A stretch of DNA of 35,479 nt from a virus (UHGV-0144289); one strand, 5' to 3'. Numbered from the stretch's first letter, positions 583-6,998 are shown. The notes: generated by a model not told the origin, from the letters alone. Program-made: numbers and translations.

Positions 583-1599
583 TCATTTTTTCTGACCACC
601 AACAACCGGCACAATTTTAGTTTTCCTGTCGTAAATCGCCGTTTGTCTCGAATTCTTATGGCCTGAAATCGCCTGTTTCTCCTCGAGGCTTCCTTCCAGA
701 TCAGAGACACCTTTCGCTTTCAGATCGTGGAAAGTGAAATCTATCTGCAGGTGTGGGTTCTTTTCCTGCGCTGCGATTTTCGCGTCGCGCCAGCGTGAAT
801 TAAAACCGTCACGGGTGTATTTGCTGCCGCTGGTCTGGTGAATGACAAACAGGCTACGGATACCCGGCTTTAACGGCAGGGAACGGGCGAGGGCGACAGC
901 GGCGCGCAGGCGTGGCGACCATGCTTTGATTTGCTTCACGCCTGTTTTCCCCTGGCGGATAAAGATCCCGGTTTCGCGTATCTGGTCTTCAGTCAAAGCC
1001 AGCACATCGCTTTGTCTGGCCAGACACAAATAAGCGATTTCCATGGTGGCGCGAACTACGTCTGGAGCAACATCGTAAACCGCTTTGTATTCTTCGTCGG
1101 TGATGTAACGCTCCCGGGCTGCCTCTTTGAACTTCTTAACGCCCTGACAGGGATTATGCTGGACGTAACCCCGCTCATAACCCCAGCGGAATACCCGAGA
1201 AAGAAAACTCTTTTCCCGGTTGGCCTGCGTTTTACTGGCCATGCCACGCTGATCCATATAGCGCCGGATGTGTTCCGGTTTAATTTTATCGGGGTTAACC
1301 TTCCCGAACACCGGCAACACTTTGCCTGCGTATTTCGTGTAGTCTTTGCGGGTTTCTGCCGCTAAATCCTGCCAGTCAGGGGAAGACATGAATTGATCGG
1401 CCAGAGCCTGAAACGTCTTGCGCTCGACTTCTTCTCCCATGGCTTTTTCATATGCCAGCCATACAGCTGATTGAGGCTCGGAGAGCGCACATAGCCTGAT
1501 AGCCTTGTTATCTTTATTCCTGAATTCATACGCCGCCTTACCGCGATACACGCGGGGCGGCATCCAGTTATCAGCGGGGTTCTTACGTTTTCCGGCCAT
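583..1599 (-). CDS. int: Phage integrase, tyrosine recombinase family
   Basis: 338-aa ORF adjacent to the tRNA attachment region; C-terminal half has the catalytic-domain pattern of tyrosine recombinases (conserved R, H-x-x-R and a Tyr nucleophile near the C-terminus, ...TAIYDRKTK). Confidence 0.9.
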   Translation of the reverse strand: MAGKRKNPADNWMPPRVYRGKAAYEFRNKDNKAIRLCALSEPQSAVWLAYEKAMGEEVERKTFQALADQFMSSPDWQDLAAETRKDYTKYAGKVLPVFGKVNPDKIKPEHIRRYMDQRGMASKTQANREKSFLSRVFRWGYERGYVQHNPCQGVKKFKEAARERYITDEEYKAVYDVAPDVVRATMEIAYLCLARQSDVLALTEDQIRETGIFIRQGKTGVKQIKAWSPRLRAAVALARSLPLKPGIRSLFVIHQTSGSKYTRDGFNSRWRDAKIAAQEKNPHLQIDFTFHDLKAKGVSDLEGSLEEKQAISGHKNSRQTAIYDRKTKIVPVVGGQKK

Positions 1600-1828
1600 T
1601 AAAGATAGCTCCGAAGTCTGGTTCTTCCTCCCGCACCGTCTCTTCCTGCTGGTTGCGGTATTTAATCGGGTTCAGGAAATGGCCCCACGTCGTTTTAGGA
1701 TGGCCGTCTGCCCTTTCCATGAAAAAGACACCGGCCCGACGTAGCGCTTCACACTGCCTCGATTTAAGTGGGGTCCCCGTCAGTTCGATCATTTCCTCTC
1801 TGGTGATGATGTCGTGATCGTGTCTCAT
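1583..1828 (-). CDS. xis: Excisionase-like small DNA-binding protein
   Basis: 81-aa ORF directly upstream of and overlapping int by 17 nt; helix-turn-helix-like segment (REEMIELTGTPLKSRQCEALRRAG); start codon preceded by the GAGGAAAGACC start-associated motif. Confidence 0.5.
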   Translation of the reverse strand: MRHDHDIITREEMIELTGTPLKSRQCEALRRAGVFFMERADGHPKTTWGHFLNPIKYRNQQEETVREEEPDFGAIFNGRKT

Positions 1829-1988
1829 GGTCTTTCCTCAGCATGCCGGCTATCGCGTTGTCTGCCGTATCGCAAGCGCGTTGGATATCGGACTGGGTCA
1901 GAGTCCTCTTTCTAACGCTGGCTGATAGCCTGCCAATTTTGATATCGAAATCTGAAAGTAAAAGTGTGCCTGGTTGCCAACGTAGCAT
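1764..1988 (-). CDS. Hypothetical protein (doubtful ORF)
   Basis: 74-aa ORF overlapping the xis-like start by 65 nt; no recognisable domain; may be spurious or shorter. Confidence 0.2.
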   Translation of the reverse strand: MLRWQPGTLLLSDFDIKIGRLSASVRKRTLTQSDIQRACDTADNAIAGMLRKDHETRSRHHHQRGNDRTDGDPT

Positions 1989-2023
1989 TGTGATCTCCGG
2001 TTCATAGGTAGATCACAATGCTA
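1983..2023. repeat. Perfect 14-bp inverted repeat TAGCATTGTGATCT / AGATCACAATGCTA separated by 13 bp
   Basis: Read directly; lies in the gap between two minus-strand ORFs of the early-left operon. Confidence 0.8.
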
Positions 2024-2037
2024 ACGACAGTTGCGAG

Positions 2038-2259
2038 TTATTTCTGATTAGGCTTAATCAGGTTTGGTTTATTCCGGAACGCGCCATTTTCGCGGGTGAT
2101 TTTGGCACTGCGCGGAAAATGCATAGCCAGTTCACAACGCGCGCAGGCTTCGATTATCCCGTTAGTACCGTCCGGAAAAACGACGTGAAGCGCGTCGCCT
2201 CGTTTCAGTGTGAGTTTCAGCATATCAGCGCACCTGCAGCGAACGTTCGCCAATCTCAA
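2038..2259 (-). CDS. Hypothetical early protein
   Basis: 73-aa ORF in the leftward early operon, overlapping the next gene by a few codons; no confident domain assignment. Confidence 0.4.
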   Translation of the reverse strand: MRLANVRCRCADMLKLTLKRGDALHVVFPDGTNGIIEACARCELAMHFPRSAKITRENGAFRNKPNLIKPNQK

Positions 2260-2791
2260 GGTGAGCGCCCGGCACTGGGTTTAACAGTTCTTCCGGTATC
2301 TCTCCGCCGTCAGCGGTAATCTGGGCCGCCGCTGCCTGTGCTGATTCAATCGCTTCCTTGATGGCTTTCTTGTCCGGAGTGACTAACGTCTGAACTGTCA
2401 CTAATTCATCCGGCAGTAATTCATCATTATCGATCACGACGTTTATAGCTCCCTTACGTGCGGTAAAGGTATTTTTGGCGGTTTTAACCGTATCCTGACC
2501 GGCGGCCAGTAGACACTGGAGAACATATTTCTTCAGGTTCGTGATCTTACCTTCGAATGATTTTTTGCGGGCGGCAAGGCGTTTGGCCTCTTCATCGCAG
2601 GTTTTTGCCAGGCCTTCCAGATTGCGAACGTGGACGAAAACGGCATCCAGTTTATCGCCGAGTTGTAACTCAAGACCTTCCATTGTGTCGGCGATCATTT
2701 CAGGAGACAGACCAGCACCGTCTTCGTTTTCCAGTAGTGCCTGGAGTTTTGACATATCGGCTGCGATAGCAATTGCAGTGGTGGAAGTCAT
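2225..2791 (-). CDS. Siphovirus Gp157-family protein (commonly found next to phage recombinases)
   Basis: 188 aa; coiled-coil N-terminus and the pattern EEAKRLAARKKSFEGKITNLKKYVLQCL...TFTARKG...VIDNDELLPDEL, which resembles the Gp157 family as I recall it; immediately downstream of the annealing-protein gene. Confidence 0.5.
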   Translation of the reverse strand: MTSTTAIAIAADMSKLQALLENEDGAGLSPEMIADTMEGLELQLGDKLDAVFVHVRNLEGLAKTCDEEAKRLAARKKSFEGKITNLKKYVLQCLLAAGQDTVKTAKNTFTARKGAINVVIDNDELLPDELVTVQTLVTPDKKAIKEAIESAQAAAAQITADGGEIPEELLNPVPGAHLEIGERSLQVR

Positions 2792-4941
2792 TATGCTTTC
2801 TCCTCGGCTTTATTCAGTTCTTTAATGCGCCCATCTTTGATGGAGATGAGTCGGCGGAGCCGGCCAGACAGATAACGTTCATGCTGCGTGTCGCCGTTGG
2901 CCTGGGCGGCTTTAATGTGAACATCGATCTCACGTGCGATAGGGGAAAACACACCGTTGATTTCGTTCACCGTCACGCCATGCGCCAGGGTATTAGCAAC
3001 GCGGCTTAATTTATCGTCAAACTCCTGGCGGAGCCGTGCTGCATCTTCGGCTGATTCGCTGGCGTTCTTCAGGTCAAACTCGGCCTTGTTCTTCTGGCGG
3101 TACTCCAGATTGTCGTAAAGCCCCATAAAGATATCGCCACTGAATCCGAGGCCGGATAACGCTTTTTTGGTCGCATCTGTCAGTGATTTTTTGGCTGCTT
3201 CGCCGTCGCAGGTGATCCCGTATTTACTACCGTAAATGTAGGGTGTACAGCCGTATGCTGTTTCCTCACCTCGTACTCCGTTCAGGATGTACCAGAGCCG
3301 GACAGTCACAACATGGTGCTGTTCGTTGACGGTATTACCATTCCCATCAAGAACCAGCTCCCACGATGCGTTGTTGTCTTTGCCTTTTACCTGCCGAGTG
3401 ATCGGCGCGCCAATATCGAAACGCTCTTCAACAATATCCACGCCCCAGCCGATGCCCTTAGGGCCAAACTCACGTGTGGCAAGCATGGTCATGTAGGTAC
3501 CGTTGATCGAGGTGCCACCGCCGTTCTGTGTGAAAGCCTTAGTAAACCTTTCGTCGGTTTTAAATACGCGTTTCCAGAGGTCTAAATTGTCTTCCCCGAT
3601 AATTGGTTTTCCGACAGCCTGCACAACATCCTCAGCGTTAGGCAGGCTTTCAGCGTGAGCGATTTGTTTTGCTAAACGCTCGGAATCATCAGCCAGTTTT
3701 TCAGCCTTAACGCTTAACTTCTCTTCCGGCTCTGCACCTTCACCAGAGGCATATACGCCATAACCCATATCATTGAGCGTCTCACGCGCCTGTTTGGCCT
3801 GAGTGTCGGTTACAACCGGCTGCTGCGCTTCCACTTTTTCGCCCACGTTTGAGGCGGTATTTTGCGTCGCCTCTGGTTGTTTAACGGATCCTGTCTCGGT
3901 TTCCTCAAAGCGACCGTTGGCCGCCAGCCATGAATCGATATGGCGGCGCAGGCTGTCAGGGAAATGGTAGGTATCTTTCGCCGGTACGTTTTGTACCACG
4001 CCGAAGATGCTGGCACGGTCGTATTTGAGTATCTGCGGCGTGGTGTGCAGCGATGCTGACCAGCGTTTAAAATCTTCCCGGTCATCGGAAATCATCTTCT
4101 TAGCGTCCAGAAGGTTTCCGGATAGTACCGGCGCATCAGGCGCCAGCGGGAGAAGGGCGGTAGCGATCTCCTGATCCAGCGTTGCATAAGTGTGTTTATA
4201 CCCGCGCTTAGAAATTACCACGGGTGTTTTATCATCGGTGCTGGTGCTGAGAGCGGTATTTTTATATACGCCGGGGGCCAGTTCGTCGCGCTTGCCCGGA
4301 TTCTCAAGCCAGCGTTTAACGAACTGAGAGATAGCCGCTTTGCCCGGCGTCTGGTTTTCAAAGTGGGAGAAAATACCCTGAATAAGATTGTTCAGACCTT
4401 CCACATGCATGCTTTGAACCGGGAAGTTATTTTGCAGGGCGCACAGAACATTAAAGTTAAAGCGATCTTCCTCTTCAAATTCCCCATCGTGGTTTTTCAG
4501 ATTATCCAGATAATCCACAACCTGAGAATAAAGATGGCCATCAATCGCCGCGGTGCTAAAAAGCAGGACGGCAGCAAAGCGTTCATCAGGGGAAACGGTC
4601 ATCAGGTCGATCACTTCATCGTCGGCTGGTAAACCTGCACCACTTCCGGAAGCGCTATCCTGCGCAGTAGAAACCCATTTTTCACCGTCAAAAGTATGCT
4701 GCTGGGCGAATGACTCATCGAACTGGCCAACGGTCGGCAGCGGCTGGCCTTCAACGTGTTCCCACAGTTTCGGTTTGAAATAGTTGTCACCATTGGCCGG
4801 GTATGATTCCCAGAGTTTGCCGGTCATAATGCTTTCGGCCACTTTTTTGTTTGGCGCATCGATGGCGATCGCCAGCTGCACGGCGCCGCAGTCTTTAATC
4901 GCCGATTTCTTTGGCTCAAATGAGCCGTTGTAGATGGTCAT
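2791..4941 (-). CDS. Large recombination protein with a C-terminal Erf/Rad52-like single-strand annealing domain and a ~430-aa N-terminal region of unknown function
   Basis: 716 aa from the ATG at 4941 (preceded by GAGGAAAGACCA). The C-terminal third (YGCTPYIYGSKYGITCDGEAAKKSLTDATKKALSGLGFSGDIFMG) resembles the conserved core of Erf/Rad52-type annealing proteins. Position in the early-left operon fits a recombination function. Confidence 0.6.
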   Translation of the reverse strand: MTIYNGSFEPKKSAIKDCGAVQLAIAIDAPNKKVAESIMTGKLWESYPANGDNYFKPKLWEHVEGQPLPTVGQFDESFAQQHTFDGEKWVSTAQDSASGSGAGLPADDEVIDLMTVSPDERFAAVLLFSTAAIDGHLYSQVVDYLDNLKNHDGEFEEEDRFNFNVLCALQNNFPVQSMHVEGLNNLIQGIFSHFENQTPGKAAISQFVKRWLENPGKRDELAPGVYKNTALSTSTDDKTPVVISKRGYKHTYATLDQEIATALLPLAPDAPVLSGNLLDAKKMISDDREDFKRWSASLHTTPQILKYDRASIFGVVQNVPAKDTYHFPDSLRRHIDSWLAANGRFEETETGSVKQPEATQNTASNVGEKVEAQQPVVTDTQAKQARETLNDMGYGVYASGEGAEPEEKLSVKAEKLADDSERLAKQIAHAESLPNAEDVVQAVGKPIIGEDNLDLWKRVFKTDERFTKAFTQNGGGTSINGTYMTMLATREFGPKGIGWGVDIVEERFDIGAPITRQVKGKDNNASWELVLDGNGNTVNEQHHVVTVRLWYILNGVRGEETAYGCTPYIYGSKYGITCDGEAAKKSLTDATKKALSGLGFSGDIFMGLYDNLEYRQKNKAEFDLKNASESAEDAARLRQEFDDKLSRVANTLAHGVTVNEINGVFSPIAREIDVHIKAAQANGDTQHERYLSGRLRRLISIKDGRIKELNKAEEKA

Positions 4942-4985
4942 TGGTCTTTCCTCTTGGTTACTGGCGCAGGTCACGCGCCGGTTAA

Positions 4986-6291: not shown

Positions 6292-6489
6292 ATGAAGACC
6301 GAAACTGTTATCAGATTTTTTGGAACTAAAACCGCTGTTGCGCGTGCATTAGGTATCTCTCAAGTCGCTGTAACCCGCTGGGGGACTGTTGTTCCTGAAA
6401 AGCGAGCTGCGCGACTTGAGCATGTAACCGCGGGCGCCTTGAAGTACGACCCTACTTTTTACGAAGAGCAAAACACGTCTAAAGCATAA
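6292..6489 (+). CDS. Cro-like / YdaS-like small HTH regulator
   Basis: 65 aa; HTH (TKTAVARALGISQVAVTRW); first gene of the rightward early operon, RBS AGGAGAGG. Confidence 0.7.
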   Translation: MKTETVIRFFGTKTAVARALGISQVAVTRWGTVVPEKRAARLEHVTAGALKYDPTFYEEQNTSKA

Positions 6490-6551
6490 CTACAGGCGTT
6501 ATCGAAATCTGATTACGCTTAATCAATTTTCAGCGACAGGAGACGCTCGAA

Positions 6552-6998
6552 GTGGAATACCTCGAAGAACTTAAACGAGAGATCTTTAACTGGGCAGCGG
6601 AAAGCGGGCAGGAGCTGGTTGCTATCGAGATAAGCCGCATGTGGTTTCGTCTTGGTGGTAATACCGGTTCGCTGAAGCTGCACCAGATCGAAGATGCAGA
6701 TGGAAACGCCGACTGGCGGGCAATCAACAACAACCGCCAACAAATTTTTCGTTGGTTGCGAGGCGAGACCAAAGCCGCGAGAGCCAAAACTCTGGCGCTG
6801 GTCAAAGCGATGGAAGCGGCGCTGCCGGCAGAACGTTACGCGCGCTTGGGTATGTCCACCCAGTATTTAATTTGTGTGGCCATTCGTGAGTTTGCCGCGG
6901 CGATTATCGCGTTATTACTCGACGCCAGAGACGGGCCGCAGCAAGTCGCCAGAGCATTGCAAGCTATGCGAGAAACACAGCGCCTGACCAGCGTTTAA
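6552..6998 (+). CDS. YdaT-like (CII-like) regulatory protein
   Basis: 148 aa, GTG start with RBS AGGAGA; position after the cro-like gene and the motif RWLRGETKAARAK are reminiscent of the Rac-prophage YdaT family (from memory). Confidence 0.45.
   Translation: MEYLEELKREIFNWAAESGQELVAIEISRMWFRLGGNTGSLKLHQIEDADGNADWRAINNNRQQIFRWLRGETKAARAKTLALVKAMEAALPAERYARLGMSTQYLICVAIREFAAAIIALLLDARDGPQQVARALQAMRETQRLTSV

What the first reader, a model, noticed from the sequence alone, without database searches (positions are those of the whole stretch)
1983..2023. Perfect 14-bp inverted repeat between early-left genes
TAGCATTGTGATCT and its exact reverse complement are separated by 13 bp in a short intergenic gap near the xis/int end of the early-left operon. 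A 14-bp perfect stem is unlikely by chance and lacks a following U-tract on either strand, so it is more likely a protein-binding dyad (for example for an excisionase or regulator) or an RNA processing site than a terminator.
Basis: seen in the sequence. Interest (0 to 1): 0.4.

Follow-up and report, generated by a model that had tools for sequence, protein, structure and literature searches.

The report
Promoter-embedded mRNA hairpin gating small gene
The perfect inverted repeat is the DNA copy of a conserved mRNA hairpin that hides the ribosome-binding site and start codon of an overlooked small prophage gene just upstream of xis-int, and its upstream arm appears to contain a lysogeny-type (YdaT/CII-like) promoter, so the gene would be translated only from transcripts that start inside the hairpin.

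Summary
The 14-bp perfect inverted repeat (1983-1996 / 2010-2023, 13-nt spacer) is real and is the longest perfect stem in the window.

The site is not truly intergenic. The arm at 1983-1996 holds the ATG (1988-1986) of a conserved, mostly unannotated 74-aa gene on the minus strand (orf74, phrog_27062). That gene runs into xis.

In more than 60 distinct relatives the stem is kept through compensatory changes. G-U wobbles favour the minus (mRNA) strand. SD and AUG are always paired, so this is an RNA structure, not a protein-binding dyad or a terminator.

Twenty-one bp upstream lies a perfect YdaT box (TGATT-N6-AATCA, 2045-2060). The only other copy in the window sits beside the phage's own ydaT gene. 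Both boxes are followed, after exactly 21 nt leftward, by a TAnnnT hexamer. At this site the hexamer is TAGCAT, the first six bases of the hairpin's 5' arm.

Best reading: early-left read-through transcripts fold the hairpin and silence orf74. Transcripts from a YdaT-activated PI-like promoter start near 2011, lack the 5' arm and are translated, as with T4 genes e, soc, 49 and I-TevI. The structure is shown by comparison; the promoter and start site are inferred. No RNA-seq could be consulted.

The parts
2010..2023 (-). 5' arm of the mRNA hairpin (UAGCAUUGUGAUCU). It is non-coding and also holds the candidate -10 hexamer and the predicted transcription start.
1997..2009 (-). 13-nt loop (ACCUAUGAACCGG). 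CC 2008-2007 can pair with GG 1998-1997 of the SD.
1983..1996 (-). 3' arm (AGAUCACAAUGCUA). It contains the last two bases of the SD, the SD-AUG spacer, the AUG (1988-1986) and codon 2 of orf74.
1995..1998 (-). Shine-Dalgarno GGAG of orf74, 6 nt before the AUG. It is paired in the MFE structure.
2024..2030 (-). 5' side of the lower stem extension (CUGUCGU). It pairs with codons 2-4. The helix is interrupted in the window and forms 7-8 further bp in most relatives, giving 18-25 bp in all.
1977..1982 (-). 3' side of the lower stem extension (CGUUGG, codons 3-4 of orf74).
1764..1988 (-). orf74: a conserved small gene (phrog_27062, 74 aa, invariant FDIKIGRLSASVRK). It is unannotated in most relatives and overlaps the xis start by 65 nt in another frame.
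2045..2060 (.). YdaT box A (TGATT-N6-AATCA), inside the last codons of the 61-aa gene. Proposed activator site of a PI-like leftward promoter, centred at about -41.5.
2018..2023 (-). Candidate -10 hexamer TAGCAT, exactly 21 nt downstream of box A.
2009..2013 (-). Predicted (not mapped) transcription start of the PI-like promoter. Such transcripts lack the 5' arm.
   Evidence: inference; folding
2038..2223 (-). Upstream 61-aa gene (phrog_2482), stop TAA 2040-2038. It is the last gene of the tightly coupled recombination cassette.
1826..1840 (-). xis ribosome-site cassette GAGGAAAGACCAUG, read through by orf74 ribosomes (it encodes R-K-D-H of ORF74).
1583..1828 (-). xis-like gene (DUF4224, phrog_1266 excisionase).
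583..1599 (-). Tyrosine integrase.
6510..6525 (.). YdaT box B, the only other perfect box in the window. It lies between the cro-like gene and ydaT (PRE-like site).
6483..6488 (-). TATGCT hexamer exactly 21 nt leftward of box B (candidate -10 of the PRE-like promoter).
6552..6998 (+). ydaT (PF06254, E 3e-21), the CII-equivalent activator gene of this phage.

Best explanation
The inverted repeat encodes a hairpin in the leftward (minus-strand) mRNA. The hairpin base-pairs the Shine-Dalgarno sequence (GGAG, 1998-1995), the AUG (1988-1986) and the first codons of orf74 with a non-coding upstream arm (2023-2010, extended to about 2030). On long transcripts that read through from the early-left promoter the hairpin forms and orf74 is essentially untranslated.

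The DNA of the upstream arm also carries the -10 element (TAGCAT, 2023-2018) and start point (about 2011) of a weak, activator-dependent promoter. A YdaT box (2045-2060) sits at the class-II position (about -41.5). YdaT is this phage's equivalent of lambda CII. When YdaT is made during the lysogeny decision, transcripts start inside the hairpin. They lack its 5' arm, have an open ribosome site, and so express orf74 along with the downstream xis-int region.

Shown by sequence and comparison: the hairpin, its covariation and strand, the reality of the gene, the box, and the fixed box-to-hexamer geometry shared with the ydaT-proximal box. Inferred: YdaT binding at box A, promoter activity, the start site, and the size of the translational effect.
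For: 1. Structure. Across 41 distinct sequences, 87% of cells are paired. Eight of 14 pairs show double (compensatory) changes. None of 500 shuffles reaches the observed covariation, and slid registers drop to 26-51% paired. RNAalifold recovers the stem.
2. Strand. In the 11-bp core there are 41 G-U cells on the sense strand, against 5 that would be G-U on the other strand.
3. Occlusion. In 62 of 62 distinct relatives the AUG is fully paired and the SD mostly paired. Stems are 18-25 bp and dG runs from -18 to -34 kcal/mol. Opening the orf74 ribosome site costs 18.9 kcal/mol, against 2.8-7.2 for neighbouring genes; 44 long ORFs average 8.1 (sd 3.6, max 17.3).
4. The gene is real. phrog_27062 E 6.7e-31. 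Codon-position entropy is 0.46/0.36/1.01. Synonymous/non-synonymous counts are 14141/10966 in frame, against about 2400/22500 off frame. There are 75 homologues in Klebsiella, Raoultella, E. coli, Serratia, Pectobacterium and others.
5. Promoter.
- The window has exactly two perfect TGATT-N6-AATCA sites, against 0 of 1000 shuffles with two or more. One lies 21 nt before the hairpin; the other is beside ydaT (PF06254).
- Published YdaT boxes are TTGATT-N6-AATCAA and ATGATT-N6-AATCAA, and they activate a PRE-like promoter (PMC9986795, PMC11879457, PMC8630535).
- Both window boxes are followed leftward by N21 and then TAGCAT or TATGCT.
- In 11 of 11 relatives with a perfect box A there is exactly one other perfect box. 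It lies within about 200-250 bp of the YdaT-domain match and carries N21 + TAnGCT.
- Four Serratia-group phages changed the left half-site to C(A/G)ATT at both sites.
- In Rac, the box beside ydaT is followed by N21 + TATGAT.
- Box A half-sites are frozen even at synonymous codon positions, while the N6 spacer tolerates amino-acid changes.
- The stop-to-AUG spacer is fixed at 49-50 nt.
6. Consequence. Transcripts starting at 2013-2009 need only 7.0 kcal/mol to open the site, against 19.0-19.4 for read-through RNA.
7. Precedent. T4 e, soc, 49 and I-TevI show about a 100-fold effect (PMC3014915).
Against: - The start site, YdaT dependence and translational effect are therefore unmeasured.
- The consensus promoter scan finds nothing here. 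There is no recognisable -35, as expected only if the promoter is activator-dependent.
- TAGCAT is also explained by complementarity to AUGCUA, so at site A the -10 reading is not independent of the hairpin.
- At site B, the T and A of the hexamer overlap the complement of the cro stop codon, and GCn is a terminal Ala codon. Coding could therefore contribute to its conservation.
- One Serratia subgroup has TTGCAT (no A at -11) one nt further away.
- In the Rac paper the YdaT-responsive promoter was placed about 190 bp from the box, not adjacent.
- Rac's box upstream of xisR is spaced N22 and has no hairpin or orf74.
Confidence: 0.6

Rival explanations
1. The hairpin is only a constitutive translational throttle or coupling device, with no internal promoter. 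It keeps orf74 translation very low on the single early-left transcript. Alternatively, it lets orf74 be translated only when ribosomes finishing the upstream 61-aa gene nibble the base of the stem, or when a 30S subunit waits on the single-stranded spacer (standby).
For: The structure, covariation and SD/AUG occlusion are as. In most relatives the first paired base lies a median of 7 nt after the upstream stop codon, within reach of a terminating ribosome. The hairpin sits in the only untranslated gap of an otherwise overlapping operon: UAAUG, UGAUAUG, and the orf74/xis and xis/int overlaps.
Against: A terminating ribosome would open only 2-4 of 18-25 bp. This reading does not explain the perfect YdaT box, its frozen synonymous sites, the N21 + TAnnnT geometry shared with the ydaT-proximal box and with Rac, or the co-variation of the two boxes.
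Confidence: 0.2
2. The hairpin is mainly an RNase III (or other) processing site. Cleavage would separate the recombination-gene mRNA from the orf74-xis-int segment, as with the lambda N-leader and sib sites or the T7 intergenic sites.
For: With the lower stem, the helix reaches 18-25 bp in relatives, close to the two helical turns favoured by RNase III. It lies at a module boundary with no terminator.
Against: The window's own helix is 14 bp plus an interrupted extension. Some relatives keep only a 9-11 bp uninterrupted upper stem. The one invariant feature is that AUG and SD are in the stem at a fixed position, which processing alone does not require. No cleavage data exist. This could co-exist with the main reading.
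Confidence: 0.1
3. The repeat is a DNA dyad bound by a dimeric protein (excisionase, repressor or other regulator).
For: Perfect symmetry in the window. Each arm resembles a CRP half-site (TGTGATCT), a match recalled from my own knowledge, not tested here. The repeat is conserved in relatives.
Against: Half-site sequence is not conserved, whereas complementarity is (GUGAUC, GUGGUC, GUGGCCUC, GGCGGCCUC, UGCUG and others). The one-sided changes are strand-asymmetric G-U. The arm-to-arm spacer varies. The TGTGA and TCACA cores are 19 bp apart rather than the 6 bp of a CRP site. The repeat is about 1.4 kb from the attachment site where Xis acts. No further copies of the half-site cluster anywhere in the window.
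Confidence: 0.03
4. It is an intrinsic transcription terminator at the end of the recombination genes.
For: A stable stem-loop at a gene boundary.
Against: There is no U-run after the stem on either strand. The terminator scan does not call it. The 3' arm is the start of a conserved gene.
Confidence: 0.01

Closest known systems
Transcript-specific translation of phage T4 genes e (lysozyme), soc, 49 and I-TevI (review PMC3014915)
   Same: The SD and/or AUG are buried in a hairpin on long read-through transcripts. A second promoter lies in the DNA that encodes the 5' strand of that hairpin, so its transcripts lack the inhibitory arm and are translated.
   Different: There, the internal promoter is a T4 late promoter (TATAAATA, gp55/gp33) in a lytic phage. 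Here it would be a sigma-70 promoter dependent on a CII-like activator (YdaT) in a temperate phage, and the gated gene precedes xis-int. The start site here is predicted, not mapped.
Lambda CII-dependent PI promoter; YdaT-box-dependent PRE-like promoters of Rac and CP-933P (PMC11879457, PMC8630535, PMC9986795)
   Same: A lysogeny-decision activator has one site between cro and cII/ydaT and a second site ahead of the integration genes. The box sequence matches the published YdaT box (core 10 of 10). The phage encodes YdaT.
   Different: No PI-equivalent YdaT site is described in the three papers read. Lambda PI lies inside xis, so that Int is made without Xis. Here the promoter lies upstream of orf74 and xis, and is fused to a translational hairpin.
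RNase III-sensitive hairpins of the lambda PL operon (N leader, cIII, sib) and T7 early mRNA (my own knowledge)
   Same: A stable hairpin in a phage early operon that overlaps a ribosome site or a module boundary, with no U-tract.
   Different: No evidence of cleavage. The window's helix is shorter and more regular. The conserved feature is the position of the AUG and SD.
RBS-sequestering structures of small or toxic genes (hok, tisB standby site; MS2 lysis gene) (my own knowledge)
   Same: A small gene whose start site is locked in a very stable local structure and needs a special route to be translated.
   Different: No antisense RNA partner or processing signal was found. Toxicity of ORF74 is unknown.

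Membership tests
T4-type promoter-in-hairpin translational gating | A hairpin sequesters the SD and/or AUG on upstream-initiated transcripts | tested here: met
   Covariation-supported stem. AUG paired in 62 of 62 relatives. dG_open is 18.9-19.4 against about 3-7 kcal/mol for neighbouring genes. This is computational; no probing was done.
T4-type promoter-in-hairpin translational gating | A promoter in the DNA encoding the 5' strand, so that its transcripts lack that strand | tested here: inconclusive
   Box-N21-TAGCAT geometry is shared with the ydaT-proximal box in 16 phages and with Rac. The predicted start at 2013-2009 gives an open site. The start is not mapped, and the generic promoter scan is negative.
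T4-type promoter-in-hairpin translational gating | Measured difference in translation between the two transcript forms | not testable with these tools
   Needs reporter fusions.
YdaT (CII-equivalent) regulon site | The phage encodes a YdaT-family protein | tested here: met
   PF06254 E 3e-21 at 6552-6998. Also present in 15 of 15 relatives.
YdaT (CII-equivalent) regulon site | Inverted repeat nTGATT-N6-AATCAn | tested here: met
   Perfect core at 2045-2060. Only two such sites in the window, against 0 of 1000 shuffles with two or more. Literature boxes.
YdaT (CII-equivalent) regulon site | YdaT binds the site and activates an adjacent promoter | not testable with these tools
   Supported only indirectly, by co-variation of the two boxes in the Serratia group and by the shared spacing.
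RNase III processing hairpin | About 20 bp or more of mostly continuous dsRNA | tested here: inconclusive
   The window has 14 bp perfect plus an interrupted extension. Relatives have 18-25 bp with a bulge.
RNase III processing hairpin | rnc-dependent cleavage | not testable with these tools
   No RNA data.
Intrinsic terminator | GC-rich stem followed by a U-run | tested here: not met
   No U-run on either strand. Not called by the scan.
Palindromic operator for a dimeric DNA-binding protein | Half-site sequence conserved; changes need not be complementary | tested here: not met
   Half-sites differ between phages while pairing is kept. Strand-asymmetric G-U substitutions.
Any Rfam family | Score at or above the gathering threshold | tested here: not met
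   Only the three tRNAs pass. At relaxed E-value, the only matches are generic miRNA-precursor hairpin models far below threshold.
CsrA/RsmA (considered for the upstream 61-aa protein as a possible reader of the loop GGA) | Match to PF02599 or to CsrA structures | tested here: not met
   No Pfam hit even at E 10. No CsrA in PDB sequence or profile searches. The AF2 model has five strands at pLDDT 85, but Foldseek gives no hit at E <= 0.001 and no CsrA among the top 50.

The most novel reading that the evidence does not exclude
The hairpin-plus-promoter is the sensor of a recombination-directionality switch.

- On YdaT-made (lysogeny) transcripts orf74 is translated. Its ribosomes run, in another frame, across the xis ribosome-site cassette and stop 29-65 nt inside xis. 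This overlap is kept in 59 of 59 distinct relatives, whatever gene follows. Xis synthesis would be changed, most likely suppressed, so that Int acts alone and the phage integrates.
- On early-left transcripts after induction the hairpin silences orf74. The xis site is then free, and Xis plus Int drive excision.

This would be a translational solution to the problem lambda solves by placing PI inside xis. The conserved ORF74 protein itself may also act on Xis or Int.
Probability: 0.25. Interest if true: 0.75.

Novelty: new variant of a known kind. Interest (0 to 1): 0.55.

Why it matters
- It turns an anonymous palindrome into a concrete, testable regulatory module: an unannotated conserved gene, a covariation-supported RNA switch with no Rfam family, and a predicted second target of YdaT.
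- For YdaT-type lambdoid phages, which are widespread in Klebsiella, E. coli, Serratia and Pectobacterium, only the PRE-like target has been described. This would be the missing PI equivalent.
- It would also show that the T4 'promoter inside an inhibitory hairpin' trick is used in the lysis-lysogeny circuit of temperate phages.
- It flags a small protein with a 14-residue invariant core, positioned to influence excision and integration. That matters for prophage stability and for engineering or inducing these prophages.
- Practically, genome annotation pipelines miss orf74 in most E. coli records.

Tried and rejected
1. CsrA idea. The 61-aa upstream protein (MLKLTLKRGD...TRE) looks CsrA-like by eye, and the loop carries GGA. 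Nothing formal supports this. The only profile hit is a weak match to Bap surface-protein repeats.
2. CRP site. The arms resemble CRP half-sites, but the TGTGA and TCACA cores are 19 bp apart rather than 6, and TGTGA is not conserved in relatives.
3. Activating sRNA or extra copies. I searched the arm sequence in the window at up to 2 mismatches. The only notable extra hit is a 10-of-12 copy of the 5' arm inside the upstream gene (2129-2140), and there is none in the early leader.
4. Rfam, at gathering and relaxed thresholds: nothing.
5. Function of ORF74. There are no Pfam, NCBIfam, PADLOC or PDB hits. The AF2 model is poor (pLDDT 64: a beta-hairpin plus a long helix), so no fold search was run on it.
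6. Frameshift or bypass across the 49-50 nt gap. I considered this because of the fixed gap length, and rejected it. There are no matching take-off and landing codons, and orf74 has its own conserved SD and AUG.
7. Small hairpin CUGAUUA/UAAUCAG at the end of the upstream gene as an RNA element. Pairing is lost in the Serratia group while the box-like pattern persists, so it is better read as the YdaT box.
A literature search for a described hairpin upstream of excisionase genes found nothing specific.

Full report
**Observation.** The window contains TAGCATTGTGATCT at 1983-1996 and its exact reverse complement at 2010-2023, 13 nt apart. This is the longest perfect stem-loop in the 35.5-kb window. 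Only 1 of 100 Markov-1 shuffles reached 14 bp. No T-run follows on either strand, and the consensus scan puts neither a terminator nor a sigma-70 promoter on it.

**Context.** The window is a prophage record integrated beside tRNA-Gly/Cys/Leu. All genes around the repeat are on the minus strand:
- integrase, 583-1599;
- a DUF4224 excisionase, 1583-1828;
- a 61-aa gene, 2038-2223 (phrog_2482; the listed 73-aa ORF starts too early);
- a Gp157/Gam-like gene, 2225-2791;
- a large 'exonuclease' gene, 2791-4974.

The last three overlap stop-to-start (UAAUG, UGAUAUG).

**The gap is not empty.** The ORF at 1764-1988 (minus strand, 74 aa) matches phrog_27062 at E 6.7e-31. It is conserved in BUCT708, ZF40 (annotated there as gp04) and E. 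coli prophages. It has 75 homologues in the protein collection, all 'hypothetical'.

It shows a clear coding signature. Column entropy by codon position is 0.46/0.36/1.01. Synonymous against non-synonymous codon differences are 14141/10966 in frame, and about 2400/22500 in the other frames. The protein has an invariant core, FDIKIGRLSASVRK. PGAP leaves the gene out in E. coli.

Its AUG is at 1988-1986, inside the arm 1983-1996. Its SD, GGAG, is at 1998-1995, at the junction of loop and arm. The real intercistronic spacer is therefore 49 nt.

**It is an RNA hairpin on the mRNA strand.** I collected 80 viral loci, 9 genome loci and 6 annotated records. They give 62 distinct sequences.
- On a 41-sequence alignment, the 14 pairs are standard in 87% of cells. 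Eight pairs show changes on both sides. None of 500 shuffles reaches the observed covariation, and sliding the partner drops pairing to 26-51%.
- RNAalifold independently predicts the 11-bp core.
- Variants include GUGAUCU/AGAUCAC, GUGGUC/GACCAC, GUGGCCUC/GAGGCCGC, GGCGGCCUC/GAGGCCGCU, UGCUG/CAGCA and, in ZF40, CGUGUGACCUC/GGGGUCACAUG.
- One-sided changes are G-U on the sense strand 41 times in the core. Only 5 times would they be G-U on the opposite strand.
- In most relatives the stem continues for another 7-8 bp. The spacer sequence CCAUCGC pairs with codons 2-4, GCGAUGG. This gives 18-25 bp and -18 to -34 kcal/mol. The window's own version has a U-U mismatch there.
- In all 62 sequences the AUG is fully paired in the minimum-energy fold, and the SD is mostly paired.
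- Opening positions -13 to +5 of orf74 costs 18.9 kcal/mol. The neighbouring genes cost 2.8-7.2, and 44 long ORFs of the window average 8.1 (sd 3.6, max 17.3).
- Rfam has no matching family.

These results argue against a double-stranded DNA operator and against a terminator.

**A promoter in the 5' arm.** I tested this idea.

The stretch TTATTTCTGATTAGGCTTAATCAG was already conspicuous, because it is invariant in the first alignment. It contains TGATT-N6-AATCA at 2045-2060. Published YdaT boxes are TTGATT-N6-AATCAA (CP-933P) and ATGATT-N6-AATCAA (Rac). YdaT is the functional equivalent of lambda CII and activates a PRE-like promoter up to 29-fold (PMC9986795, PMC11879457, PMC8630535).

Evidence from the window itself:
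- It encodes a YdaT-family protein (6552-6998, PF06254, E 3e-21) after a Cro/YdaS-like gene.
- It has exactly two perfect boxes: 2045-2060, and 6510-6525 between cro and ydaT. None of 1000 shuffles gave two.
- Read leftward, both boxes are followed by exactly 21 nt and then a T-A-n-n-n-T hexamer. Box A is followed by TAGCAT, the first six bases of the hairpin's 5' arm. Box B is followed by TATGCT.

Evidence from relatives:
- In 11 of 11 relatives with a perfect box A there is exactly one other perfect box. It lies within about 200-250 bp of the YdaT-domain match and again carries N21 + TA(A/T/G/C)GCT, although the 21-nt spacers differ.
- All 15 relatives checked carry one ydaT.
- In four Serratia-group phages the left half-site has become C(A/G)ATT at both sites, as expected if one co-evolving protein reads both.
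- In E. coli K-12 Rac, whose YdaT is only about 30% identical to the CP-933P YdaT, the box beside ydaT is followed by N21 + TATGAT.
- Box A lies in the last codons of the 61-aa gene. Its half-sites are frozen even at synonymous positions, while the N6 spacer tolerates amino-acid changes (K/T/R, P/R/H).
- The box-N21-TAGCAT arrangement occurs in 49 of the 61 distinct relatives that were parsed correctly. The stop-to-AUG spacer is fixed at 49-50 nt.

With TAGCAT as -12 to -7, the start falls at about 2011 and the box centre at about -41.5, a class-II activator position. This last step is my inference.

**Consequence.** RNA starting at 2013-2009 lacks the 5' arm and needs only 7.0 kcal/mol to open the orf74 site. 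RNA that reads through from upstream needs 19.0-19.4. This is the arrangement documented for T4 genes e, soc, 49 and I-TevI. There, late promoters lie in the DNA encoding the 5' strand of an inhibitory hairpin, and the effect on lysozyme synthesis is about 100-fold (PMC3014915).

**Caveats.**
- Nothing here is measured.
- TAGCAT is also what pairing with AUGCUA demands.
- At site B the hexamer overlaps the cro stop codon and a terminal Ala codon.
- One Serratia subgroup has TTGCAT, one nt further away.
- The Rac paper assigns the YdaT response to a promoter about 190 bp from the box.
- RNase III cleavage of the roughly 20-bp helix, or simple throttling or coupling, remain possible and could co-exist.

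**Downstream link.** In 59 of 59 distinct loci where the next gene could be called, orf74 overlaps that gene's start by 29-65 nt, always in the same relative frame. The next gene always begins with the cassette GAGGAAAGACCAUG, whatever protein it encodes. The R-K-D-H near the ORF74 C-terminus is simply that cassette translated. Ribosomes on orf74 therefore always traverse the xis ribosome site. This motivates the directionality-switch reading given as the novel case.

**Side leads that failed.**
- The upstream 61-aa protein looks CsrA-like by eye, but no Pfam, PDB-sequence or Foldseek result supports this.
- ORF74 has no detectable family, and its model is poor.

**Verdict.** The 'intergenic protein-binding dyad' reading is replaced by a conserved mRNA hairpin that gates an overlooked gene, probably combined with a YdaT-dependent PI-like promoter. 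It is a new variant of a known kind of control, of moderate to good interest.

Noticed in passing
L112 2005-2020 (E. coli K-12 Rac, NC_000913.3 1413504-1413519): A perfect YdaT-box core (TGATTATTAATAATCA) lies between rcbA and xisR. It is followed leftward by N22 + TAACAT and then the xisR SD and ATG. This suggests a YdaT-dependent PI-like promoter for xisR-intR in Rac. The term intR has no whole-word hit in PMC11879457, and 'integrase' has no hit in PMC8630535 or PMC9986795.
   Followed up: partly
L111 3652-3705 (Rac, ydaS-ydaT junction): The published Rac YdaT box is followed leftward by exactly 21 nt and then TATGAT (5 of 6 to consensus). A class-II-type promoter may therefore sit right next to the box, rather than, or in addition to, the PracR4 promoter placed about 190 bp away in PMC11879457.
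   Followed up: partly
window 1826-1840 and loci L007-L095 around 1646-1663: ORF74's conserved R-K-D-H is the translation of the shared ribosome-site cassette GAGGAAAGACCAUG of the next gene. orf74 overlaps that gene by 29-65 nt in the same relative frame in 59 of 59 distinct loci. This holds whether the next gene is one of three xis types or an unrelated 86-88-aa gene.
   Followed up: partly
window 2038-2223: The 61-aa protein (phrog_2482) gives a confident all-beta model (five strands, pLDDT 85) with no significant structural neighbour. Its profile weakly matches the repeat units of staphylococcal Bap (7dm0, full-sequence E 8e-8; per-repeat i-E 0.07). The C-terminal NQK-stop is invariant at the DNA level because it overlaps the YdaT box and its flank.
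   Followed up: partly
window 2129-2140 (minus strand): A 10-of-12 copy of the hairpin's 5' arm (GCGUUGUGAACU) lies inside the upstream gene. It could pair with the same 3' arm as an alternative long-range partner. Its conservation was not checked.
   Followed up: no
L107-L110 and L071-L083 (Serratia-group proviruses): Both YdaT boxes carry C(A/G)ATT instead of TGATT in the left half-site. This looks like a specificity shift co-evolving with a diverged YdaT.
   Followed up: partly
L001 (OM816834.1, 'Stenotrophomonas phage vB_SmeS_BUCT708'; also BUCT709): These records share the whole int-xis-orf74-recombination module, at 80% DNA identity, with enterobacterial (Klebsiella/E. coli) prophages. 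This is unexpected for a Stenotrophomonas host and may indicate a host mis-assignment.
   Followed up: no
window 6483-6489 and site-B loci L096-L110: All 16 cro-like genes examined end with Ala-TAA at a fixed 21-nt distance from the YdaT box, although the cro sequences differ. The stop codon and last codon seem to be held in place by the overlapping -10-like hexamer.
   Followed up: partly
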